Part shown: positions 1,502 to 63,520 of the stretch, piece after piece
How the letters are laid out: every line of letters begins with the position of its first letter
How positions within the stretch are numbered: position 1 is the stretch's first letter
Virus record (IMG/VR): IMGVR_UViG_3300047560_000348
Span: 4,136-68,135 of that record
DNA: 64,000 bases
Origin: a virus
Lineage: Duplodnaviria; Caudoviricetes
Strand: one strand, 5' to 3'
Made by a program: the position numbers and the translations under genes
The notes under the pieces: model-generated
Database searches by the model: none
What the model was told of the DNA's origin: nothing
Seen by the model: only the letters and a program-made list of their open reading frames with translations

Positions 1502-4582
<3,081 letters not shown>

Positions 4583-4590
<8 letters not shown>

Positions 4591-50796: not shown

Positions 50797-51336
50797 TCAT
50801 ACTATACGTGTAAACCAGCGTGGAGTTGTATATCTGATACCTTCTGCAATTGGCTTGACTCCATGGATATATCTTGGATTATCTGGAAAGGTTAGCAGAT
50901 CTCCAGGTTGTGGTTTATGAGAAATATCATATTCTGGGAAATAGATATCTCCACCAGTATAGTCGTTATTTATATAGATAAGTGTAGCAATATCATTTGG
51001 CTTACTTGCATCATAGTGCTCATGCATACCCCACCCAGACTCAAACCTAGCTATGTGTGACATTGCTGGCTCAAATGGCTTGAATTCGCCTCCATAATGC
51101 TCTACGACAAAGTCATAGACTTTCTTGCCCCATTCTGTCACCAGTGCCCTTACAGCCTGTGTGTCAACGTCATCCTTCTTGAATACATTGACGGTAAACT
51201 CTTTTTCTCCATTACCATACTCATCAAATTCGCCATCATTCTTTCTTGAGTATGCATCAATAATTTCTATGACATCTGCTGGCATAAAACCTGGAATGTA
51301 ATGAATCTGAGACTTCAATTCTTCTTTTGTCATCAT
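50797..51336 (-). CDS. 2OG-Fe(II) oxygenase, prolyl-4-hydroxylase-like
   Basis: MHEHYD (HxD), IYINNDYTGGDIYF, PGDLLTFP, HGV, GIRYT. Confidence 0.9.
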   Translation of the reverse strand: MMTKEELKSQIHYIPGFMPADVIEIIDAYSRKNDGEFDEYGNGEKEFTVNVFKKDDVDTQAVRALVTEWGKKVYDFVVEHYGGEFKPFEPAMSHIARFESGWGMHEHYDASKPNDIATLIYINNDYTGGDIYFPEYDISHKPQPGDLLTFPDNPRYIHGVKPIAEGIRYTTPRWFTRIV

Positions 51337-51494
51337 CTAAACCTATCTTCTGGTGAGTGTTTTGGCATGTTGTCAGCACCGCATTTTGTACAAGTAAGCT
51401 TTATAATTCCAGTAACTGGACATTCATTACCACGAACTACCTCATGACCTAGTATTTGACACTTTTTAGCTATTAGCCATTTATAGAATCCCAT
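51333..51494 (-). CDS. 53-aa Cys/His-rich (putative Zn-binding) mini-protein (absent from the ORF track)
   Basis: Manual translation MGFYKWLIAKKCQILGHEVVRGNECPVTGIIKLTCTKCGADNMPKHSPEDRFR; GAGG RBS; ATGA overlap with the next gene. Confidence 0.72.
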   Translation of the reverse strand: MGFYKWLIAKKCQILGHEVVRGNECPVTGIIKLTCTKCGADNMPKHSPEDRFR

Positions 51495-51507
51495 TAGTTG
51501 TGCCTCA

Positions 51508-52173
51508 TCATATTAGTGGTACCCAATGTTGAGACACTCCTCCGCCATCTTGAATTGATTCTACAACTCTTGTATCATATGCCAGAGTTATTCTCTTTTT
51601 GTTTGAATCGCCCCAGTGACCACGAGCATGCTTATGGCCAGTTTCCGACAAAATGGCTCTATTGTTTTTATTTTCATTTCTAAATGGTGTTACACCATTG
51701 ATTCTATAATGTGTTGTTGATGGCTCTGCATTGATGCAATAATATCCGTGAATATCTGGCATTCCCATACCACCAGAGTGTTCGTGTAGGTTTGGCTCAA
51801 TGTGGTATGTTTCATACTCTTCTAAAGAACAATCATCTGCGTCTTCAACGTTAATCCAACCTTGAACATAGTATTCCATTTCATCAAAATCTTTACCATA
51901 ATGGTCACATGCCTCTTTAGCCATATCTCTTACTGCTGCATAAAGCTTTCTAATTACCTTATGCTGCATTTGAAAAATATTATAGTTGCTTAAAAGTCTA
52001 GTGGTGAGGCATCCATGATTTTCTGCCTTAATGCTTTGTGCATACTCTTTTGTAATACCTGGCAATTCGCCATCTAACATCTTCTGTTCTACGACAATAC
52101 AGAAATCATAAAAATCTTCCAAGTCATTGTCAGATATATCTAGGTATCTTTCAAAGAATTTGTGCTCTGCCAT
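51508..52173 (-). CDS. Putative DSBH Fe(II) oxygenase (TIGR02466-like), paralog 3
   Basis: HKFFERYLD, QGWIN, HEH, HGYYCINAEPS, NKNNR, SETGHKH, RITLAYD, QHWVPL. Confidence 0.68.
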   Translation of the reverse strand: MAEHKFFERYLDISDNDLEDFYDFCIVVEQKMLDGELPGITKEYAQSIKAENHGCLTTRLLSNYNIFQMQHKVIRKLYAAVRDMAKEACDHYGKDFDEMEYYVQGWINVEDADDCSLEEYETYHIEPNLHEHSGGMGMPDIHGYYCINAEPSTTHYRINGVTPFRNENKNNRAILSETGHKHARGHWGDSNKKRITLAYDTRVVESIQDGGGVSQHWVPLI

Positions 52174-52174
52174 A

Positions 52175-52837
52175 TTAATTTCCTAACTTGATCCAGTGAT
52201 CCCCAACAAATGCTGTCTTAACCATTGATGGGTTTTTTGGACTTATGTCATAGGCAATGGTGATTCTATTGCCATCCCAGTTCCAGTTTTCAATCGCATG
52301 TGGGTGACCAGTTTCCGATAAAACTAGTCTATTGTTTTTATTTACATTTTCAAACAACTTATTAACATCTCTATTGATGTGATAGAACGTTGATGATGGT
52401 TCTGCATTCACACAGTAGTAACCATGGAATACTGGTGCCCCAGTTCCATGCATGTGATCGTGGAACCACTCTGGATGACCTAGAGGAGACTCTCCACCAT
52501 AAACAGATTTTTCATTAATATTAAACCATCCACAAATATAGTAATCAGCAGCATCAAAATCAATGCCATAGTACTCACATGCTTCTTTAGTTGTCTCTAG
52601 TAGTCCTAAATATAGCTTTTTAATTGCTGGATGATCCCAGGTGAATATGTTGTAATAATCACCAAGCATGGTTGTCAGTGCGTCTCCACGCTGGTGCTTT
52701 TCATCAAATACGTCTTTTGGTGCATTGATGCCATTCGCATAAATAAAATCTCTTTTATCGACAAGGTATGCCGTTAACTCTGATAAATCATTGTCTAGGT
52801 ATCTATCAAAAAACTTATGCGATGGCTTCTCAATCAT
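52175..52837 (-). CDS. Putative DSBH Fe(II) oxygenase (TIGR02466-like), paralog 2 (true start MIEKP at 52837)
   Basis: HKFFDRYLD, GWFNIN, HDH, HGYYCVNAEPS, SETGHPH, RITIAYD; ATGA overlap with the upstream stop. Confidence 0.68.
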   Translation of the reverse strand: MIEKPSHKFFDRYLDNDLSELTAYLVDKRDFIYANGINAPKDVFDEKHQRGDALTTMLGDYYNIFTWDHPAIKKLYLGLLETTKEACEYYGIDFDAADYYICGWFNINEKSVYGGESPLGHPEWFHDHMHGTGAPVFHGYYCVNAEPSSTFYHINRDVNKLFENVNKNNRLVLSETGHPHAIENWNWDGNRITIAYDISPKNPSMVKTAFVGDHWIKLGN

Positions 52838-53511
52838 GCTAGTGGGATCCAGTGCTGTTCTGCATTGTGTCCACCACGCTGTAGGTATCTGAATGGTGTT
52901 ACATCGTAAGCAACAGTAATTCTGTCGCCTTCCCAGTCCCATTCGCCCTGTGAGTGTGGGTGGCCCATTTCTGAAAGAACCAATCTGTTGTTCTTATTAA
53001 TGTTTTCTTTTTCTTCGTCAAAACACATGTAGTATGTTGAAGATGGCTCTGCGTTTACACAGTAGTAACCATGGAAATCTGGTGCCCCTGGACCACCGTG
53101 TTCATGCCAGCCAAGTTTACCTTGGCCTGCGTGGTTAATATTAAACCATCCTTGAATCATGAACTGCTCTTTTTCAAAGTCAAGCTCATAATATTCACAT
53201 GCTTCACGAACCAGCTGACCGATTCCCTTGTACAACTTATAGATTCCGTCAATGTGGAACTGGAATACATTGTATTGTCTCCACTTCATAGTGGAAATAC
53301 TGCCAGACTCTTTCCATACTTCAAATGGACTGACTGGCGTTACCCCAGCAAGTTTGGCATTTTCAATTAGTTCGTATCTAATTTTTAGCTCTTTTGCCAG
53401 CTCATCTAGATCGTTATCTAGGAATGCCTCAAAGAATTTATGAGGCTTTGTGCTTGCACTTGTACTTCTAAGTGTCGTTTGGTCTTTATACGACATACCC
53501 ATATTGGACAT
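52834..53511 (-). CDS. Putative DSBH Fe(II) oxygenase (TIGR02466-like), paralog 1
   Basis: HKFFEAFLD, QGWFNIN, HEH, HGYYCVNAEPS, SEMGHPH, RITVAYD, QHWIPL. Confidence 0.68.
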   Translation of the reverse strand: MSNMGMSYKDQTTLRSTSASTKPHKFFEAFLDNDLDELAKELKIRYELIENAKLAGVTPVSPFEVWKESGSISTMKWRQYNVFQFHIDGIYKLYKGIGQLVREACEYYELDFEKEQFMIQGWFNINHAGQGKLGWHEHGGPGAPDFHGYYCVNAEPSSTYYMCFDEEKENINKNNRLVLSEMGHPHSQGEWDWEGDRITVAYDVTPFRYLQRGGHNAEQHWIPLA

Positions 53512-53545
53512 TTGTGAACTCCATTCTATGTCTCTTTTATAGATT

Positions 53546-53554
53546 AGTATACCA
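53546..53554 (-). promoter_or_regulatory. Extended -10 promoter TGGTATACT upstream of the oxygenase cluster
   Basis: Intergenic copy of the recurring motif; identical 9-mer at 47113..47121 and 21840..21848. Confidence 0.6.
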
Positions 53555-53565
53555 TAAGTGGCAGA

Positions 53566-53817
53566 CTATCTGAATGAGAATACTTTGAATGGAGAGAAGG
53601 TAAATACTCCAAATGGGGCAAAACCAAATACGCTAAAGAATCCAAAGGCTGGAGCAAAGCTAAATACGCTGAAGAATCCGAATACTGCAAAGAATCCGAA
53701 TACTGAAAAGAATCCGAATACTGAGAAGAAGTTGAATACTGAGAAGAAGTCAAAAACAGAGAAGAATCCGAATACTGAGAAGAAGTTGAATACTGAGAAG
53801 AATCCAAAAACGCTAAA
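53566..53817 (-). repeat. 18-bp coding tandem repeat array 1: 11 in-register hexapeptides plus 2 offset units
   Basis: Plus-strand unit approximately GAAGAATCCGAATACTGA; encodes FSVFGF, FSVFNF, FSVFDF, FAVFGF, APAFGF. Confidence 0.95.
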
Positions 53818-54417
53818 TGTTGTAATTGACGCAGATGTTCCAATAGCAGAGTTACCATTGCCATTGGTAGCATAAACATCATATGTCTGTGCAGTTCCAG
53901 CTTCTTGGTTTACGTTAACTGGGGAGGTAGAAGAATCTCCAGACTTACCATCACTAGATGTCCAGTGATAGTTAGTAATAGCTTTTCCACCATTATTAGT
54001 TGGTGCAGTCCAAGAAAGCTGGTCATATGCTTGACCAGTGCCAGAGTCTGGAGATAATACAGATACAGATGTTGGTGCATCTGGAACTGTTGTAATCAGC
54101 ACAGATGCTGAGGCAGCAGATGATCCAGATGTTCCAGAAGCATTTGTAGCAGTAACAGTAAATGTCACATTTGTATTAGATGGAATTCCAGTAACTGTAA
54201 TTGGAGATGAAGACCCAGTTGCAGTCTGCCCAGTTGAAGCAGTTACAGTATACGATGTTGCAACTGGAGAGTTAGCAGGTAGAGAAAAGCTAACTGATGC
54301 TGCACCATCGTTAAATGCTCTGCCAGTACCAATGTCTGTTGCTGAAACGCTTGTAGGTTCCATTGGTTGCAAAAAGTCATTGGCTTGCTGTGAGTGTCTA
54401 CCTGCTCTTTTGCTCAT
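53566..54417 (-). CDS. Protein with two FN3-like domains and a C-terminal Phe-rich hexapeptide array
   Basis: FN3 patterns SYTVT..SPITVTG..TFTVTATNASG and PDAPT..LSWTAP.NNGG.AITNY; tail (FSVFGF)n...VFSFR. Confidence 0.8.
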   Translation of the reverse strand: MSKRAGRHSQQANDFLQPMEPTSVSATDIGTGRAFNDGAASVSFSLPANSPVATSYTVTASTGQTATGSSSPITVTGIPSNTNVTFTVTATNASGTSGSSAASASVLITTVPDAPTSVSVLSPDSGTGQAYDQLSWTAPTNNGGKAITNYHWTSSDGKSGDSSTSPVNVNQEAGTAQTYDVYATNGNGNSAIGTSASITTFSVFGFFSVFNFFSVFGFFSVFDFFSVFNFFSVFGFFSVFGFFAVFGFFSVFSFAPAFGFFSVFGFAPFGVFTFSPFKVFSFR

Positions 54418-54442: not shown

Positions 54443-56194
54443 TTAGGCTGACAAGTCTCCGTAGACAACCCATGTGTTTGCTGCTCTCTTCATAAGAGTT
54501 GCAGAAGACCACTGAGTTCTCAACTTTAGACCTGGTGTTGCGTTTACAGTAACTCCACCTGCACCTGCAATTGTAACCTGTCCAGTAGAAGTCTGGAGGA
54601 TATCAAGAGTGGTTCCGATTGGGTAGTCTACTGATGAATCTGCTGGGATTGTTAGAGTTGTTGCTGAAGAGCTTCCAACTTCAATAAGTGTATCTCTTTC
54701 ATTAAGATTTGACAGTGTGTATGATGCTGTCTTTTGAGAGATTGTAGTGATAGATGGAACACCCTGCTTTGTCTGGATTCCGTCTGCAAATTCGACTCCA
54801 CCTAGCTTTAGGGTATCAAATGTTGCTGTTCCAAAGTCAACGTGGCTATCTGTTGGCTCAGCTGCACCAGAAACAAGCTTCCACTTTCCATCTGTTGCAT
54901 CACGAACAATACCTGTGTGGAAGTGTCCTGAGTTTGAGTCGCCATACGCACCAAAGATACCAATATCAAGAGTGTCTGTATCGTACTGCTCTGCAGCAAG
55001 GTAAATTAGTGAGTCTGTAACCTCAAGGTTGGTTGCATCTACTGTTGTGGTTGTTCCCTGTACTGTAAGGTTTCCTGTAATTGTCAAATTCTCAGCAGTT
55101 GCGTTACCAGTGATAGCTGGAGCAACCTTTGGAGCATATGTAGCTGCTGCTGAAGATTCTGCTGCTGTCTGTGCATTATCTGCCTTGGCCTGGGCACCTG
55201 TCTGTGTCTCTAGCTCTGCAGTATCTGCAATTCCGTGTACAGATGTTGTGTCTGAGTTGTGTGTTCCAACTGCATCATCTGCATATGTCTTTGTTGCCAA
55301 AGCTGCGGTATCTGAAATACCATGTACGTTTGTAGTGTCTGCATTGTGATCAGAAATTGCTCCTGATGCTGCATTGTCTGCATAAAGCTCAGTTGCTACT
55401 GTACCGTCAATTGCTACTGTAATCTTGTTAGTAGAGTCGTCATATGTGGCTGTAATGCCTGTACCGCCCTCTACTGCGTTACCAAGGGCATCTTGAGCAC
55501 GTTCAGTAGTGAAATATAGGTTTGCACCCTCTGCAACGTTATCTGTTGTAAGACCTGCAATATCTGATTCAATTCCAGACACAGTGGTGTTCAATGTATC
55601 AATTGCTGTTCCCTGTGTGCTATTTGTTGTCTCAATTGCTGCAACAGAATCAGACAAATCTGAAATATTTCCAGTGTGTGTTGCTAGGGTTGTCTGAATA
55701 GTTTGAACTGCAGAATCATTATTTGTCTGATATGTCTCTCTTGCAGATGTTTCTGTTGCAAGGTTTGTTGTGAGTGCTGTAATATCTGTATTAATATCTA
55801 CAATAGTCGCTGCTGTAGATGTTGACAAATCGCCAATATCAGCAGTTAGATCTGAAATAGCTGTAGTTAGTCCAGAAGCAAGCTCAGAAAGAGTGTCTAG
55901 CTCTGCAGGAGCTGACTGAATAATATTGCTTAGCTGAGAGATTGGAACCTGAGCGTTACCATCTAGTGTAGCAACACCATTAGCAGATGCCTTCTCTGCG
56001 TCCTTGACATATCCGCTAATGTCAAGATCATCAAAATTCTTAAAGTATGTTAGGCTGGTCCAAGCTGTTGTACCATCACCAATCTTAAATTGTCCAGAAT
56101 CGGACTCAAAGCCGATTTCACCAGCAGAGAGAATAGGGTTTGCAGCAGTCCATTGTGCTGCAGTACCTCTGCGTTGCTGCATTCTTGTTGCCAT
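54443..56194 (-). CDS. Fibre protein with an Mtd/hyaluronidase-type N-terminal domain, coiled-coil shaft and C-terminal GDLSA domain
   Basis: MQQRRGTAAQW..ANPIL..GEIGFE.D...FKIGDG...W..L.Y; AP.ELDTL.EL; C-terminal SYTL...QWSSATL.KRAANTWVVYGDLSA. Confidence 0.75.
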   Translation of the reverse strand: MATRMQQRRGTAAQWTAANPILSAGEIGFESDSGQFKIGDGTTAWTSLTYFKNFDDLDISGYVKDAEKASANGVATLDGNAQVPISQLSNIIQSAPAELDTLSELASGLTTAISDLTADIGDLSTSTAATIVDINTDITALTTNLATETSARETYQTNNDSAVQTIQTTLATHTGNISDLSDSVAAIETTNSTQGTAIDTLNTTVSGIESDIAGLTTDNVAEGANLYFTTERAQDALGNAVEGGTGITATYDDSTNKITVAIDGTVATELYADNAASGAISDHNADTTNVHGISDTAALATKTYADDAVGTHNSDTTSVHGIADTAELETQTGAQAKADNAQTAAESSAAATYAPKVAPAITGNATAENLTITGNLTVQGTTTTVDATNLEVTDSLIYLAAEQYDTDTLDIGIFGAYGDSNSGHFHTGIVRDATDGKWKLVSGAAEPTDSHVDFGTATFDTLKLGGVEFADGIQTKQGVPSITTISQKTASYTLSNLNERDTLIEVGSSSATTLTIPADSSVDYPIGTTLDILQTSTGQVTIAGAGGVTVNATPGLKLRTQWSSATLMKRAANTWVVYGDLSA

Positions 56195-56726: not shown

Positions 56727-58358
56727 TTACTTAATGATTGTTCCAAATACAGTCACGACAGAGTTGTTGTTGGCTGTAGTGACACGAAGTCTTACATTAC
56801 CAGCATTAACATCTGCTGTGATAGTTGATGCAGAGCCATTCGTTCCAACAACAGCATATTCTGTAATTGCAATGTTGTCTGCAGAGTCAAGGGTAATCAT
56901 TACCTTTGATAGCTCTGTGTGTGAGCCATAGGCAACCTTTACTGTGTATTCTGCTGAACGGTATACAGCTGAGTCGAACTCGTGTGCTGTTACCTGGCTA
57001 GCTGTAGCAACTGTAGCCTGAGTAGCGACATTAGTAACAATGTTATTAAGGTCAATCTCAGTAAAGTTAGGAACTACTGCTTCAAGTGCTGTTACTGCAC
57101 GTTCGTTTGTGAAGTATAGGTTTGATCCCTCAGCAAGGTCAGATGTTGTAGAATCTGCTACACCATTTTCTGCTGCAATTGTAATACCATTGCCATCACC
57201 AGTAATAGTGATATTTGTTAGGTTGGCACTAGTTAGCAAGTCAGCAGCTGCTGTCTTTGCACGTGCATCTGTGAAGTATCTATTTACAGGAGCAAGAGTC
57301 TCTTCTGGGATATCATCAGTTGTAAGTGCATTGATTGCGTTATCTGTGTATGTGTTTGCGTTAGTTTCAGCTGTTGATGCTGAACCTGCTGCATCATAAT
57401 TTGTTGCAAGTCCGTCCGCATAGTCCTTTGCATTTTGCTCTGCAGTGTTTGCATATGTCTGTGCAGTTCCAGCTGCAGTAACGATTGCATCATTGTATGC
57501 TCCTGACGCTACTGAGTCTGCGTACTGCTTTGTTGCTGCTGCTAGAGCCTGTGTTGGGTCTGCTGCAAGAACAAGTTCTCCAGTCATTGTGTCGCCAGAT
57601 TTAGCTACTTTTTCACCAATTGATGTTCCAATTGTTGATGCAAAATTTGCGTCATCATTAATAGCTGCTGCAAGCTCATTTAGTGTATCTAGAAGAGCTG
57701 GAGCTGAGTCTACAAGATTTGCAACTGCTGTATCAGTATATCCATTTGCAGAAGCAATAGCATTGCTTTCAGCTGTTGCAGCTGCACCAGCAGCATCGTA
57801 GTTAACTGCAAGTCCATCTGCATATGCCTTAGCATTATTTTCTGCTGTTGTAGCAGATCCTGCTGCATCATAGTTGGTAGCTAGGCTATCTGCGTAACCT
57901 TGAGCTGCAGTCTGTGCTGCATTTGCCTTAGTTGTTGCATCATCAGAAGCTGTTGAAATTGCTTCTGACTTTGCTGTTGCAATATCAGTAGCTACTGCTG
58001 ACTGTGCACGTGAATTTGTAAAGTAAAGGTTTGTACCTTCTGCAAGATCATCAGTGTCATGGTTAGACAATGTTGAAACTGTACCAGTTACGTCACCAGT
58101 AAGGTTTCCTACTACGTTACCAGTTACATCGCCAATTAGATCTGCTGTAATTTCATTTGCTACAAAGTTACCATTACCGTCACGTTTTACGACAGTATTT
58201 GGTGTGTTCTCAGGGGTTGCTGTACCACCAATGAGATCAACGATGTAGTTTTGGTCTTCTTGCTTCTTAGTTAGAACGTCATAGTTATTGACGGTAGCTG
58301 TAGCACCTTCAACAACAAGACCACTCTTAACCTTAAAGTCTTTAGTGACTGTTGCCAT
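56727..58358 (-). CDS. Virion fibre protein with repeated (T)DDLAEG.NLYFT..RA and YAD.LA.NYDAAG units
   Basis: GDVTGNV repeats, APALLDTLNELAAA, C-terminal beta domain shared with 58377..58823. Confidence 0.7.
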   Translation of the reverse strand: MATVTKDFKVKSGLVVEGATATVNNYDVLTKKQEDQNYIVDLIGGTATPENTPNTVVKRDGNGNFVANEITADLIGDVTGNVVGNLTGDVTGTVSTLSNHDTDDLAEGTNLYFTNSRAQSAVATDIATAKSEAISTASDDATTKANAAQTAAQGYADSLATNYDAAGSATTAENNAKAYADGLAVNYDAAGAAATAESNAIASANGYTDTAVANLVDSAPALLDTLNELAAAINDDANFASTIGTSIGEKVAKSGDTMTGELVLAADPTQALAAATKQYADSVASGAYNDAIVTAAGTAQTYANTAEQNAKDYADGLATNYDAAGSASTAETNANTYTDNAINALTTDDIPEETLAPVNRYFTDARAKTAAADLLTSANLTNITITGDGNGITIAAENGVADSTTSDLAEGSNLYFTNERAVTALEAVVPNFTEIDLNNIVTNVATQATVATASQVTAHEFDSAVYRSAEYTVKVAYGSHTELSKVMITLDSADNIAITEYAVVGTNGSASTITADVNAGNVRLRVTTANNNSVVTVFGTIIK

Positions 58359-60075: not shown

Positions 60076-60360
60076 TTATCTAAAACTAAACACAGTAAAC
60101 GCTGGTGTAAAGTTGAATACTGTAAAGAATCCAAATGTAGGTGTAAAGTTAAACACGTTAAAGAATCCGAAAGCTGGTGCAAAATTAAACACATTGAAAA
60201 AGCCAAATACGTTAAAGAATCCAAATACATTGAAGAATCCAAATACGCTAAAGAAATTGAATACGCTAAAAAAGTCAAAAACTGCAAAGAAGCCAAATAC
60301 GTTAAAGAAGTTAAAAACATTAAAGAAGTTGAATACGTTAAAGAATCCGAATACGCTGAA
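60076..60360 (-). repeat. 18-bp coding tandem repeat array 2: 14 in-register hexapeptides plus a terminal unit
   Basis: Plus-strand unit approximately AAAGAATCCAAATACGTT with many synonymous changes; encodes FNVFNF, FNVFGF, FAVFDF, APAFGF, TPTFGF. Confidence 0.95.
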
Positions 60361-60621
60361 TGCAGTAAAAGAGAATAGCCCAATAGTCAAATCTACTGGG
60401 GATTCATATTCTGTAAGAGTTTCTGCAGCTGGGTTTTGCTGGATAACGGTATTGTCTTTTGCCTGATCTGCAGGGTCTGTTAATGTTTGTGTTGTCTCTG
60501 TTCCAACAACCAAACCATCAGAAACAATTTGTTGTTCAGCATTTTGCTTGGTTAGGGTAAGGTAGTTTCCTACCGATTTCATCCCCTTTGAAGATGCCCA
60601 TAACCCGAATGAACCTAGCAT
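60076..60621 (-). CDS. PASTA-like domain protein with a C-terminal Phe-rich hexapeptide array
   Basis: VGNYLTLTKQNAEQQIVSDGLVVG...TVIQQNPAAET......VDLTI fits a PASTA fold; tail (FNVFNF/FNVFGF)n...VFSFR. Confidence 0.75.
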   Translation of the reverse strand: MLGSFGLWASSKGMKSVGNYLTLTKQNAEQQIVSDGLVVGTETTQTLTDPADQAKDNTVIQQNPAAETLTEYESPVDLTIGLFSFTAFSVFGFFNVFNFFNVFNFFNVFGFFAVFDFFSVFNFFSVFGFFNVFGFFNVFGFFNVFNFAPAFGFFNVFNFTPTFGFFTVFNFTPAFTVFSFR

Positions 60622-62343: not shown

Positions 62344-62720
62344 TATACTTCTCCTGCAACATCTTCGGTAATCGTAATAGTTCCAGTAAGAAGAGTGTAA
62401 TTATATTCATAGTCAGTCAGGGTAGCATCTTTATTGATTTCAACATCGTATACGTATGTCTTTGATGCGTCCAATGCTTGTCCCTGTCCTGGCAAAATTG
62501 CACACTTAACATAGCTGATATTATTTGCAGAGTCAGATACGATTTCTGCATAGCCATTATATTTTATTGCACCTGCACCTCTTGATTCAGCAATGACAAA
62601 ACTTACTGAGTTGAATGTGCTTAGATCGTATGCTGCTCCAGAAGAATCTTTTGGGTAGATTCTAAATTCTAAAGTGTCTCCGCTGTAATAAGAAATATTA
62701 TATGTTCCTGGAAATGCCAT
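62343..62720 (-). CDS. BppU-N-like Ig-fold structural protein
   Basis: YNISYYSGDT, YDLS, YVYDVEI, TLLTGTITITEDV. Confidence 0.55.
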   Translation of the reverse strand: MAFPGTYNISYYSGDTLEFRIYPKDSSGAAYDLSTFNSVSFVIAESRGAGAIKYNGYAEIVSDSANNISYVKCAILPGQGQALDASKTYVYDVEINKDATLTDYEYNYTLLTGTITITEDVAGEV

Positions 62721-63520
62721 TATGATGCCCTCTCGTATGTTCCGCTGATATAGAAATAGTCAGATGTGGTCAAAACTTTTGGAGAGTTATAGTCCATATT
62801 ATACTCTTGATTTCCAGAACCATACTTTAGCTCTGCAACTGTAGTTCCTGGCTCTGCATCTAAGAAAACATTGTAGTGTGAACCATTAGCATGTAATCCA
62901 CCATCTCTAAAAATATAATCATCTGCTGGTGCAAATGGAAGGGTAACTGTATAAGCACCAGTTCCAAAGTTGCTAACATTTGTAAGAGTAAACTTCATTC
63001 TAAAATGAACCAAGTCTCCACTAAGCATATAGTGACCAGAAACAGGATTCGTTGTATATGTTAGACCAGTACCTGACCATGTTGGAGTCCAGGTACCCTT
63101 TGTTGGTGCACCGCTTGTTCCTGCTGGTCCTTGTTGTCCAGTGGCACCTGTTGCTCCAGTAGCACCAGTGGCACCAGTATCGCCTTTGTCGCCTTTTGCA
63201 CCAGTTGGTCCAACTAATGAAGCCAACCATTGTGATTCAGATCCTGTAAATCCATTTGAAATTGCAACTTGATATGCAGAAGCTCCGTTAAGACCTGCAG
63301 ATCCAGTCGAGCCTGTGGCTCCAGTATTACCTCTTGGCCCAACTAGAGAGGCAAGCCATTGTGCTTCTGAGCCTGAAAAACCATTTCCTACTGCAATCTG
63401 ATAAGCAGATGCACCTGCCAAGCCATTGTCGCCTGGGTCACCTTTGGGACCAATAGATCCAGCTTCTCCTCTGGATCCTGGAACACCTGGCATGGGAACA
63501 ACTTTAATTACTGTTGTCAT
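62720..63520 (-). CDS. Collagen-like fibre protein
   Basis: G-X-Y runs, two GASAYQ.A..NGF.GSE.QWLASL.GP units, C-terminal GTWTPT...ISGTYE domain. Confidence 0.82.
   Translation of the reverse strand: MTTVIKVVPMPGVPGSRGEAGSIGPKGDPGDNGLAGASAYQIAVGNGFSGSEAQWLASLVGPRGNTGATGSTGSAGLNGASAYQVAISNGFTGSESQWLASLVGPTGAKGDKGDTGATGATGATGATGQQGPAGTSGAPTKGTWTPTWSGTGLTYTTNPVSGHYMLSGDLVHFRMKFTLTNVSNFGTGAYTVTLPFAPADDYIFRDGGLHANGSHYNVFLDAEPGTTVAELKYGSGNQEYNMDYNSPKVLTTSDYFYISGTYERAS

What the first reader, a model, noticed from the sequence alone, without database searches (positions are those of the whole stretch)
50797..54417. Candidate phage peptide-modification system: a Phe-rich repeat protein followed by four Fe(II) oxygenases and a Cys/His mini-protein
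Seen in sequence: the FN3-like gene 53566..54417 ends in 83 aa of hexapeptide units (FSVFGF, FSVFNF, FSVFDF, FAVFGF, FSVFSF, APAFGF...VFSFR). Directly downstream is a tightly packed, partly ATGA-coupled block. It holds three mutually paralogous ~220-aa proteins sharing HKFF..LD, GW.N, HxH, HGYYC.NAEPS, SE.GH.H and RIT.AYD, a 53-aa CxxxxH/CP/CxxC protein, and an HxD...H...RxT prolyl-hydroxylase-like enzyme. Established knowledge: HxH/HxD...H...RxS/T is the DSBH Fe(II) oxygenase signature, and such enzymes hydroxylate Pro, Asp, Asn and aromatic residues in peptides. Repeated cores next to several paralogous oxidases is the layout of multi-core RiPP clusters. Inference: the repeat tail is the substrate, with diverged paralogs acting on different residues (Phe, Asn/Asp, Val, or Pro in the AP/SP/TP units). 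The product could be a chemically modified virion adhesin or released peptides. I do not recognise a described system of this form.
Basis: partly seen in the sequence, partly recalled or inferred. Interest (0 to 1): 0.9.

Follow-up and report, generated by a model that had tools for sequence, protein, structure and literature searches.

The report
Phage aromatic-repeat tail with matched oxygenases
An uncultured freshwater phage ends a fibre-region protein in a floppy tail that is nearly half phenylalanine and encodes four iron oxygenases right behind it, and in related phages the enzyme set changes with the kind of repeat, which makes the tail a testable candidate substrate although no chemistry is shown.

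Summary
On the minus strand lie, in order: a 283-aa FN3 protein whose last 83 residues hold 38 Phe, three paralogous 220-225-aa proteins, a 53-aa Cys/His protein, and a P4H-like 2OG oxygenase. Two gene pairs overlap by ATGA.

The paralogs have no Pfam or PHROG hit. A confident AF2 model (pLDDT 89.9) has the double-stranded beta-helix oxygenase fold. They keep HxH...H...RIT and sit next to PF13759.

Comparison across 116 distinct related loci shows several points.
- Every FN3 homolog carries an aromatic repeat tail, of seven types.
- The PF13759-like enzyme accompanies xVFxF, PFGF and YNF tails (61 of 61). It never accompanies PFF, PPYF or GAF tails (0 of 50), which instead have P4H copies and/or DUF6065.
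- P4H is absent from both Pro-free tail types.
- About half of the relatives add an intein/BIL domain behind the repeats.

This fits tail-tailoring cassettes. However, tail and enzymes are adjacent, so linkage alone could explain the match. Only 3 well-supported independent contrasts exist, distant homologs lack such neighbours, and no modification is shown. A RiPP reading is not supported.

The scan found this system before on other DNA (e1-5992273, e1-5909248). My results agree with those reports.

The parts
53566..54417 (-). FN3-type fibre-region protein, 283 aa, with a conserved N-terminal peptide and two FN3-like domains; carrier of the tail
   Evidence: ORF. Pfam fn3 1.1e-4, below the cut-off; homologs reach 2e-11. 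The query alignment A4 has 67% mean column identity, and a search with it found 557 relatives in viral contigs.
53569..53817 (-). Aromatic repeat tail, 83 aa, 46% Phe, hexapeptide units of type F-x-V-F-x-F, ending VFSFR; the candidate substrate
   Evidence: Composition. Repeat of 18 and 54 nt. The tail is present in every FN3 homolog examined (158 loci).
52834..53511 (-). PF13759-like 2OG-Fe(II) oxygenase paralog A (225 aa), the conserved first-position type
   Evidence: AF2 pLDDT 89.9. Foldseek hits 3bvc and 2rg4, then 2OG oxygenases. H136, H138, H147, H184, H186, R197 and T199 are invariant in 36 sequences. First-position copies are set apart from the others on the tree.
52175..52837 (-). 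Paralog B (220 aa), ATGA-coupled to A
   Evidence: 46% identity to A. Junction read. Motifs HDH126, HGYY138, GHPH177, RIT191.
51508..52173 (-). Paralog C (221 aa), 1 nt behind B
   Evidence: 41% identity to A. Junction read. Motifs HEH130, HGYY142, GHKH179, RIT194.
51333..51494 (-). 53-aa Cys/His protein (C12, H17, C25, C35, C38), probably zinc-binding; role unknown
   Evidence: ORF and residues. Homologs form cluster C4 in 34 loci. No family hit.
50797..51336 (-). Prolyl-hydroxylase-like 2OG-Fe(II) oxygenase (179 aa), ATGA-coupled to the mini gene
   Evidence: Pfam PF13640 7.3e-8, above the cut-off. PDB sequence hits: prolyl 3-hydroxylase 1 at 6.9e-5 and a chain named prolyl 4-hydroxylase alpha-subunit domain protein (3itq) at 1.2e-3. 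H107-x-D109, H158, R168.
60076..60621 (-). Second tail-bearing protein: PASTA-like domain plus a 99-aa Phe tail of the same type, also ending VFSFR; possible second substrate
   Evidence: ORF. Pfam PASTA 3.2e-5. The two tails align unit for unit at DNA level with 80% identity. The pairing is conserved in close relatives.

Best explanation
This is a tail-tailoring cassette in the fibre gene block of an uncultured freshwater siphovirus.

Shown:
- An FN3 protein, and a second PASTA-domain protein 6 kb upstream, end in a low-complexity tail that is about 46% Phe.
- Directly behind the FN3 gene, without a terminator-like site and partly translationally coupled, lie three diverged PF13759-like DSBH oxygenases and one prolyl-hydroxylase-like oxygenase.
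- In related phages the slot behind the tail gene always holds enzymes of protein-modifying families, and the set changes with the repeat type.

Inferred:
- The oxygenases use Fe(II), 2-oxoglutarate and O2 to hydroxylate side chains of the tail after translation.
- The P4H-like enzyme would act on the few AP/SP prolines. The three PF13759-like paralogs would act on different C-H positions of the F-x-V-F-x-F units, possibly beta-carbons of Asn/Asp, Val, Ser-flanked Phe or similar.
- This would make an otherwise extremely hydrophobic tail soluble or tune its stickiness for the host surface or for assembly.

Which residue is modified, and whether any is, is not shown.
For: (1) Fold and motifs. 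AF2 gives pLDDT 89.9 and pTM 0.88. Foldseek has 118 PDB matches at E<=1e-3. The top two are uncharacterised proteins 3bvc and 2rg4, followed by 2OG oxygenases including the peptide-modifying ThoJ and prolyl hydroxylases. HxH...H...RIT is invariant in 36 sequences. Atlas neighbours carry PF13759.

(2) Gene layout. There are two ATGA overlaps and gaps of 1 and 13 nt. No terminator-like site lies between the genes.

(3) Neighbourhood. An aromatic tail gene is found in 77 of 80 loci obtained through the oxygenase; the other 3 are cut off upstream.

(4) Co-variation on 116 distinct loci.
- PF13759-like enzyme: xVFxF 50/50, PFGF 9/9, YNF 2/2, PY 1/5, PFF 0/41, PPYF 0/4, GAF 0/5.
- In the 58 loci found through the FN3 domain alone, it is present in 4 of 4 loci with xVFxF/PFGF/YNF tails and 0 of 54 others.
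- P4H-like: PFF 41/41 (2-5 copies), PPYF 4/4, xVFxF 47/50, and 0/5 and 0/2 in the Pro-free GAF and YNF types.
- Pro fraction against P4H copies gives Spearman 0.69.

(5) On the FN3-domain tree the tail type changes at least 21 times and the enzyme set follows it, for example L005 against L235/L228/L229, and L051 against L209.

(6) The other slot families are protein-modifying kinds: Sulfotransfer_2 and Asp/Asn beta-hydroxylase.

(7) Paralog types A, B and C are old and kept apart. The first-position copies are separated from 54 later copies with 100% support.

(8) Precedent. PBCV-1 P4H hydroxylates that virus's Pro-Ala-Pro-Lys repeats (passage read in PMC3634087).
Against: - Tail and enzymes are adjacent. 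Exchange of the whole block by recombination in the conserved flanks (the FN3 domain on one side, the RNR or 1216-aa gene on the other) would give the same co-variation without any functional link.
- Only 3 independent contrasts rest on well-supported branches (8 on all branches). All go the same way, but p is 0.25.
- The 100% figures in the oxygenase-ascertained set hold by construction.
- Within types the Pro-P4H relation is +0.42 in xVFxF but -0.43 in PFF.
- PY tails contain Pro but have no P4H (0/5). The window's tail has only 3 Pro yet keeps a P4H.
- A class II ribonucleotide reductase sits in the same slot in 57 loci, so the slot also takes unrelated genes.
- Of 80 loci with distant homologs, 72 have no aromatic-repeat neighbour, and some lie beside psbA in cyanophage-like contigs.
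- PF13759 has no known activity (recalled).
- The metal site is HxH, not HxD/E, and its geometry was not checked in 3D.
- No mass or activity data exist.
Confidence: 0.45

Rival explanations
1. The oxygenases are auxiliary genes parked in a hyperplastic slot. They act on something other than the tail, such as host proteins (translation factors or ribosomal proteins) or small molecules. The match with tail type reflects only descent and linkage of neighbouring DNA.
For: - A class II RNR shares the slot in 57 loci.
- Distant family members occur singly in other phage types, some beside psbA, without repeat neighbours (72 of 80 loci).
- Foldseek viral matches are cyanophage proteins of unknown role.
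- A bacterial P4H that binds EF-Tu is among the fold matches (4iw3).
- The independent-contrast test is not significant.
Against: - The slot families are almost all protein-modifying kinds, and the set is specific to the tail type in 116 loci.
- P4H is missing exactly from the two Pro-free tail types.
- The genes sit inside the fibre gene block and are translationally coupled.
- The first-position paralog is 60-77% identical across the clade, as expected for a fixed partner.
Confidence: 0.3
2. The oxygenases modify other virion proteins. Candidates are the collagen-like fibre at 62720-63520 for the P4H-like enzyme, or the Mtd_N-type fibres at 54443-56194 and 56727-58358.
For: - A collagen-repeat protein lies in the same gene block (Pfam Collagen 3.9e-11).
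- By sequence the P4H-like enzyme's nearest solved relatives are prolyl 3-hydroxylase 1 and chains named prolyl 4-hydroxylase or procollagen-proline dioxygenase.
- The window's tail has only 3 Pro.
Against: - The enzyme set tracks the tail type, not the fibre genes, which are conserved across tail types.
- The collagen-like gene is 8 kb away and was outside most fetched loci, so its co-occurrence was not tested.
Confidence: 0.12
3. This is a multi-core RiPP cluster. The repeat tail is cut into modified peptides that are released.
For: Repeated cores lie next to several tailoring oxygenases. ThoJ, a RiPP hydroxylase (role recalled; the call lists it only as a non-heme monooxygenase), is among the fold matches.
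Against: - No protease, leader, recognition element or exporter is present in the block.
- The carrier is a folded FN3 protein conserved within a fibre block.
- In relatives the tail is followed by a self-cleaving BIL domain that would free the whole FN3-tail protein, not peptides.
Confidence: 0.03

Closest known systems
Chlorovirus PBCV-1 prolyl 4-hydroxylase with that virus's Pro-Ala-Pro-Lys repeat proteins
   Same: A virus encodes a 2OG oxygenase of the P4H kind together with its own repeat proteins that serve as substrates (passage in PMC3634087). The window's 179-aa enzyme is in the same Pfam family, PF13640.
   Different: Here the repeats are aromatic with few or no Pro. The dominant enzymes are PF13759-like and are not P4H. 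Enzymes and repeat gene form one coupled block whose content switches with repeat type. The host is bacterial. No activity is shown.
Pfam PF13759 (2OG-FeII_Oxy_5; structures 3bvc and 2rg4; many cyanophage '2OG-Fe(II) oxygenase' genes)
   Same: Best fold matches. Atlas neighbours carry PF13759. Distant relatives give sub-threshold PF13759 hits (4 of 10). That the HxH...H...R motif pattern is typical of the family is recalled.
   Different: The window's three proteins do not reach the Pfam threshold (no hit at E<=0.1). They form a large separate viral clade: 1351 proteins and 280 cluster representatives. No activity is known for the family, so nothing about the substrate can be borrowed from it.
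RiPP tailoring 2OG oxygenases (e.g. ThoJ of thioholgamide biosynthesis, PDB 6zyk)
   Same: DSBH enzymes that hydroxylate side chains of a ribosomal peptide encoded next to them. ThoJ is the fourth fold match (5.4e-5).
   Different: There is no leader peptide, protease or export. The substrate candidate stays attached to a structural protein. Identity to ThoJ is 8%.
Bacterial intein-like (BIL) domains and the BIL2 domain of Tetrahymena BUBL1
   Same: In about half of the relatives the repeats are followed in frame by a domain with this fold (Foldseek 3.3e-8; intein profile hit 8e-8). It has a Cys or Ser at its start and H-N near its end. BIL2 uses the thioester to ligate the upstream domain to a lysine (passage in PMC8616854).
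   Different: The window's own protein has no such domain. Whether the phage domains only cleave or also ligate is unknown.

Membership tests
2OG-Fe(II) oxygenase superfamily (paralogs A, B, C) | Double-stranded beta-helix (jelly-roll) core | tested here: met
   AF2 model of A has pLDDT 89.9 with eight strands in the C-terminal half. Foldseek gives probability 1.00 to 2OG oxygenases, with 118 PDB matches at E<=1e-3.
2OG-Fe(II) oxygenase superfamily (paralogs A, B, C) | Fe(II) facial triad HxD/E...H | tested here: inconclusive
   An HxH replaces HxD/E (H136, H138), and H184/H186 are candidates for the distal His. All are invariant in 36 sequences and in the wider family.
2OG-Fe(II) oxygenase superfamily (paralogs A, B, C) | Basic residue binding the C5 carboxylate of 2OG (RxS/T on the last core strand) | tested here: met
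   R197-I-T199 is invariant and kept in distant relatives. This rests on sequence only.
Pfam PF13759 2OG-FeII_Oxy_5 | Score above the Pfam gathering threshold (27 bits) | tested here: not met
   A, B and C have no hit at E<=0.1. Four of 10 distant relatives hit below the threshold, the best at 24.9 bits. The paralogs are therefore filed as PF13759-like, not as members.
Prolyl 4-hydroxylase-type oxygenase, PF13640 (gene 50797-51336) | Pfam threshold and HxD...H...R motif | tested here: met
   33.7 bits against a cut-off of 27. H107-x-D109, H158, R168. Prolyl hydroxylases are the nearest solved sequences. Prolyl specificity itself is not testable here.
RiPP biosynthetic cluster | Precursor with leader or follower and a protease or exporter that releases the modified core | tested here: not met
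   No protease, transporter or recognition-element family is found in the block or in the slot of 158 related loci. The carrier is a conserved FN3 protein.
Hint/BIL autoprocessing domain (relatives only) | Hint fold with N-terminal Cys/Ser and C-terminal His-Asn | tested here: met
   Met for relatives: A5 profile against inteins 8e-8, AF2 pLDDT 91.2, Foldseek BIL2 3.3e-8, termini seen. Absent from the window's protein, which ends VFSFR.

The most novel reading that the evidence does not exclude
Freshwater phages carry a modular system for chemically rewriting a disordered, FG-like aromatic tail on their fibre proteins. Each repeat type would come with its own enzyme kit: PF13759-like hydroxylases for F-x-V-F-x-F, stacks of prolyl hydroxylases plus DUF6065 for PFFPP, and sulfotransferases for Tyr-bearing repeats. 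In many members a BIL domain would then use a thioester to cleave off or covalently ligate the finished tail. This would give the long-unexplained 2OG oxygenases of aquatic phages their first substrate class and describe a new kind of virion adhesin.
Probability: 0.3. Interest if true: 0.9.

Novelty: new variant of a known kind. Interest (0 to 1): 0.7.

Why it matters
2OG-Fe(II) oxygenases are among the commonest unexplained genes of aquatic phages. PF13759-type enzymes have no known substrate (recalled; a search for the accession found only 3 papers, seen as listings only).

Here a large viral clade of such enzymes sits beside a defined, short, repetitive candidate substrate. The clade has 1351 proteins. 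The relatives fetched come from uncultured viral contigs, and the runs holding the window's stretch are labelled freshwater. Natural variation pairs enzyme kits with repeat types. The question can therefore be tested with a handful of co-expression and peptide assays.

If confirmed, it would show that phages post-translationally edit a disordered part of their host-contact apparatus. It would also add a BIL-domain processing step to virion assembly.

Tried and rejected
- **Phage isolate searches.** The block (blastn), paralog A, the FN3 domain and the 1216-aa protein (tblastn) all gave no match in 50,697 records. No cultured relative carries the module. The portal is 46% identical to that of Streptomyces phages (Stanwilliamsviridae), which have no oxygenase near the portal.
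- **PDB by sequence with the paralog profile.** Nothing meaningful was found (best E 0.18).
- **Complex prediction of paralog A with the tail (residues 186-283).** The verdict was 'no answer' (score 0.01 against a mark of 0.32). This is evidence neither way.
- **Pfam on the relatives' C-terminal domain.** Not detected (only Hom_end_hint at 0.025). A profile search against PDB and a fold search then settled it.
- **Extending the two-tail test through the PASTA carrier.** Only 10 loci were found, all close relatives, so the test has no power.
- **Paralog number against tail length within the xVFxF type.** No relation was found (Spearman 0.13).
- **The 138-aa protein of GAF-type loci.** BLAST single linkage first clustered it with the oxygenases. 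It fails the family HMM (4.8 bits), and the counts were redone with HMM-defined membership.
- **Genomes of 185,579 species.** Only 2 MAG contigs hold the family, which gives no host clue.
- **Sequencing runs.** Small shares in 15 runs were not used for habitat. Contigs of three RNA libraries from close relatives cover paralog A (3 of 3 runs), B (3 of 3; in one run only two short pieces) and C (1 of 3). DNA carry-over cannot be excluded, and the poorly covered repeat region proves nothing.
- **Promoter and terminator scan.** Counts are as in shuffles (49 against 48.1, 11 against 7.8).
- **Literature.** No paper was found on the tails, the cassette or DUF6065 in seven searches. Supplements were not opened.

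Full report
**What is in the window.** The window is part of a 68-kb viral record. It has the gene set of a long-tailed phage: portal, prohead protease, major capsid protein, a 1942-aa tape measure protein, a large DNA polymerase and a ribonucleotide reductase. Almost all genes are on the minus strand.

Upstream of the portal lies a block of fibre-like genes. Two proteins have the Mtd_N fibre N-terminus, and one is a collagen-repeat protein. Inside this block, read 5' to 3' on the minus strand, are the following genes:
- the FN3 protein (53566-54417);
- paralogs A (52834-53511), B (52175-52837) and C (51508-52173);
- a 53-aa Cys/His protein (51333-51494);
- a P4H-like protein (50797-51336);
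- then a 1216-aa protein of unknown family.

The junctions are ATGA (A/B), 1 nt (B/C), 13 nt with a GAGG (C/mini) and ATGA (mini/P4H). A 54-nt spacer separates the FN3 gene from A. No terminator-like site falls between the genes, and the promoter and terminator counts equal those of shuffles.

**The tail.** The last 83 residues of the FN3 protein hold 38 Phe, 12 Ser, 12 Val, 8 Gly and only 3 Pro. They are built from an 18-nt unit with a 54-nt super-period.

A second protein, 6 kb upstream (60076-60621), joins a PASTA-like domain (Pfam 3.2e-5) to a 99-aa tail of the same kind. The two tails align unit for unit at the DNA level, including the single Asp unit and the late Ala-Pro-Ala unit. Identity is 80%, with many third-position differences. 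They are therefore old copies kept by selection on the protein, not recent conversion. This lead came from an earlier first-reader note (e1-6253745), and I checked it here.

**The enzymes.** The 179-aa protein is a member of Pfam 2OG-FeII_Oxy_3 (7.3e-8, above the cut-off). Its motifs are H107-x-D109, H158 and R168. By sequence its nearest solved relatives are prolyl 3-hydroxylase 1 and chains named prolyl 4-hydroxylase.

Paralogs A, B and C have no hit in Pfam or PHROGs and none in the PDB by sequence. Several lines place them next to a known family:
- With an alignment of 36 family members, AlphaFold2 gives a confident model of A (pLDDT 89.9).
- Foldseek places the model in the double-stranded beta-helix oxygenases. 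The two best matches are uncharacterised proteins, 3bvc and 2rg4. They are followed by ThoJ, bacterial and HIF prolyl hydroxylases, AsqJ, CytC3 and others.
- In the viral structure library the best matches are uncharacterised cyanophage proteins and annotated 2OG oxygenases.
- The protein atlas puts A among viral clusters, of which several carry PF13759.
- Four of 10 distant relatives hit PF13759 just below its threshold.
- H136, H138, H147, H184, H186, R197 and T199 are invariant, and the HxH...H...RIT pattern persists in the wider family.

I therefore call them PF13759-like oxygenases, not members. The HxH metal site was not verified in 3D.

The family is large and viral:
- 1351 proteins at E<=1e-3, all named 'hypothetical' where named;
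- 280 cluster representatives;
- 426 stretches in viral contigs;
- only two MAG contigs among 185,579 species genomes.

**Context in relatives found through the oxygenase.** In the 80 best loci the gene order is conserved: fibre, 153-aa protein, fibre, FN3 protein, oxygenase(s), P4H, 1216-aa protein, 130-aa protein, portal. The family occurs in 1 copy (19 loci), 2 (51), 3 (9) or 4 (1) (the window's own four rows removed).

An aromatic repeat protein is found in 77 of the 80 loci. The 3 without it are cut off upstream.

On a tree of 114 distinct copies, the first-position copies are separated with 100% support from a set of 54 later-position copies. The window's B and C fall in different sub-groups of that set. 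The paralogs are therefore old and maintained, as expected if they do different jobs.

**An unexpected addition.** In about half of the relatives the repeats are followed, in frame, by a domain of about 165 aa. It begins with Cys (or Ser) and ends with His-Asn plus a few residues.

A profile of 18 such domains hits inteins in the PDB (Pho RadA intein 8e-8, a bacterial intein-like domain 2.8e-5). Its AF2 model (pLDDT 91.2) matches the BIL2 domain of Tetrahymena BUBL1, a Clostridium BIL domain, mini-inteins and the Hedgehog autoprocessing domain.

This result has two consequences. It proves that the aromatic frame is translated. It also shows that the C-terminus of the tail is processed through a thioester in those phages. 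BIL2 is known to use that chemistry to ligate the upstream domain to a lysine (passage read in PMC8616854). The window's protein lacks the domain and ends VFSFR.

**The reverse search.** All loci so far had been chosen through the oxygenase. I therefore searched with the FN3 N-terminal domain alone, which gave 557 relatives.

Among the best 80, only 14 have a PF13759-like gene within the roughly 4.8 kb held downstream. All of them, however, have an aromatic tail. The tails come in distinct kinds, here called xVFxF, PFGF, YNF, PFF (Pro-Phe-Phe), PPYF, GAF (Gly-Ala-Phe) and PY.

I clustered the genes of the slot behind the tail gene and named the clusters with Pfam:
- PF13640 P4H-like oxygenases (268 genes in 128 loci);
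- the PF13759-like family;
- DUF6065 (109 genes in 64 loci);
- a class II ribonucleotide reductase (57 loci);
- the small Cys protein (34 loci);
- Sulfotransfer_2 (27 loci);
- Asp/Asn beta-hydroxylase (7 loci);
- a weak GNAT-like family (9 loci), and a few unknowns.

**Co-variation.** The counts below are on 116 loci with distinct FN3 domains and with either the 1216-aa gene reached or at least 3 kb held downstream.

| Tail type | PF13759-like | P4H-like | DUF6065 |
|---|---|---|---|
| xVFxF | 50 of 50 | 47 of 50 | 1 of 50 |
| PFGF | 9 of 9 | 4 of 9 | 1 of 9 |
| YNF | 2 of 2 | 0 of 2 | 0 of 2 |
| PY | 1 of 5 | 0 of 5 | 4 of 5 |
| PFF | 0 of 41 | 41 of 41 (2 to 5 copies) | 41 of 41 |
| PPYF | 0 of 4 | 4 of 4 | 4 of 4 |
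| GAF | 0 of 5 | 0 of 5 | 5 of 5 |

The figures for loci found through the oxygenase hold by construction. The 58 loci found through the FN3 domain show the same split (4 of 4 against 0 of 54). Conversely, none of the 58 oxygenase-ascertained loci has a PFF, PPYF or GAF tail, although PFF is the commonest type in the other set.

The two tail types without proline have no P4H, and the most Pro-rich type has the most copies. Spearman correlation is 0.69 over all loci, but +0.42 within xVFxF and -0.43 within PFF. The counts in the PFF loci may be cut by the 5-kb flank.

On the tree of the FN3 domain the tail type needs at least 21 changes, and the enzyme set follows the tail, not the tree.

**Limits of that evidence.** The formal test of independent contrasts finds only 3 pairs on well-supported branches (8 on all branches). 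All go in the same direction, with p = 0.25.

More important, the tail is the 3' end of the FN3 gene and the enzymes start about 50 nt behind it. The flanks on both sides are conserved. Exchange of the whole block by homologous recombination would therefore move tail and enzymes together whether or not they interact.

Other points weigh against the reading:
- The slot also holds a ribonucleotide reductase.
- Of the 80 loci found with distant family members, 72 have no true aromatic-repeat neighbour: 69 have none at all and 3 have only spurious matches. The 8 that have one belong to this same clade. Several of the others lie beside psbA in cyanophage-like contigs.
- PY tails contain Pro without a P4H, and the window's tail keeps a P4H for only three prolines.

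The complex prediction gave no answer and is not counted either way.

**Other data.** Runs that hold the stretch are labelled freshwater metagenomes. The two full holders may be the source.

Contigs from three RNA libraries of close relatives cover paralog A (three runs), B (all three runs; in one only two short pieces) and C (one run). This shows that relatives are present in those libraries, not that the genes are transcribed.

A DNA-run relative has 603 extra letters between paralog C and the mini gene. That is the size of a fourth copy, as seen in locus L004.

**Verdict.** The cassette pattern strengthens it, but it remains an inference (confidence 0.45). The main rival is linkage without function (0.30). 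The RiPP framing should be dropped.

The closest known case is the PBCV-1 prolyl 4-hydroxylase with its Pro-rich repeat proteins (passage read in PMC3634087). I found no paper on the aromatic tails, their enzyme kits or the BIL ending in the searches.

The scan has met the same system before on other genomes. Two earlier follow-ups reached the same partly supported verdict (e1-5992273, e1-5909248). I read those notes only after my own analysis, and they agree with it.

Noticed in passing
L025:6711-7226 and 39 other distinct relatives (e.g. L036, L041, L064, L079): An intein/BIL-like autoprocessing domain follows the aromatic repeats in frame. It has a Cys or Ser at the junction and His-Asn near the end. 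The window's own protein lacks it. It may cleave off or ligate the tail.
   Followed up: yes
window 60076-60621 (-): A second protein (PASTA-like domain) carries the same kind of Phe tail and the same VFSFR end. The two tails align unit for unit at DNA level (80%). In close relatives the fine type of both tails matches within each genome.
   Followed up: yes
L166:5897-10432, L201:5721-7833, L174:6780-8447 and other FN3-ascertained loci: Phages with Pro-Phe-Phe tails carry 2-5 P4H-like genes plus two DUF6065 genes. Gly-Ala-Phe tails come with a GNAT-like gene, a 138-aa gene and DUF6065. PPYF tails come with a sulfotransferase-like gene.
   Followed up: partly
L025:7247-7945, L041:7224-7949, L054:7227-7943: A Sulfotransfer_2 gene is inserted between the FN3-BIL gene and the first oxygenase in 27 loci, although these tails hold almost no Tyr. 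Its target is unknown.
   Followed up: no
L025:9509-11539 and 56 other loci: A class II-like ribonucleotide reductase of about 676 aa sits in the same slot in relatives. In the window an RNR large subunit lies elsewhere (2476-4590).
   Followed up: no
L166:4989-5861, L181:4989-5942, L191: Some tails without a BIL domain end in short Cys-rich stretches behind a Gly-Gly, instead of the Phe-Arg end seen in the window.
   Followed up: no
window 62720-63520 (-): A collagen-repeat fibre protein (Pfam Collagen 3.9e-11) lies in the same gene block. It is a possible alternative substrate of the P4H-like enzyme.
   Followed up: partly
window 53544-53882 (-) and 53558-53875 (+): The repeat DNA is open in two further frames. 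These ORFs are by-products of the 18-nt repeat, not genes.
   Followed up: partly
window 50797-51336 (-): The best PHROG for the P4H-like protein (phrog_2297, 1.1e-15) is labelled 'DNA endonuclease'. This conflicts with the Pfam and PDB matches and looks like a wrong family label.
   Followed up: no
L255, L256: The only two cellular-genome hits of the oxygenase family are MAG contigs of 55 and 74 kb labelled Methylococcus and Flavobacterium. They are probably phage contigs binned by mistake.
   Followed up: no
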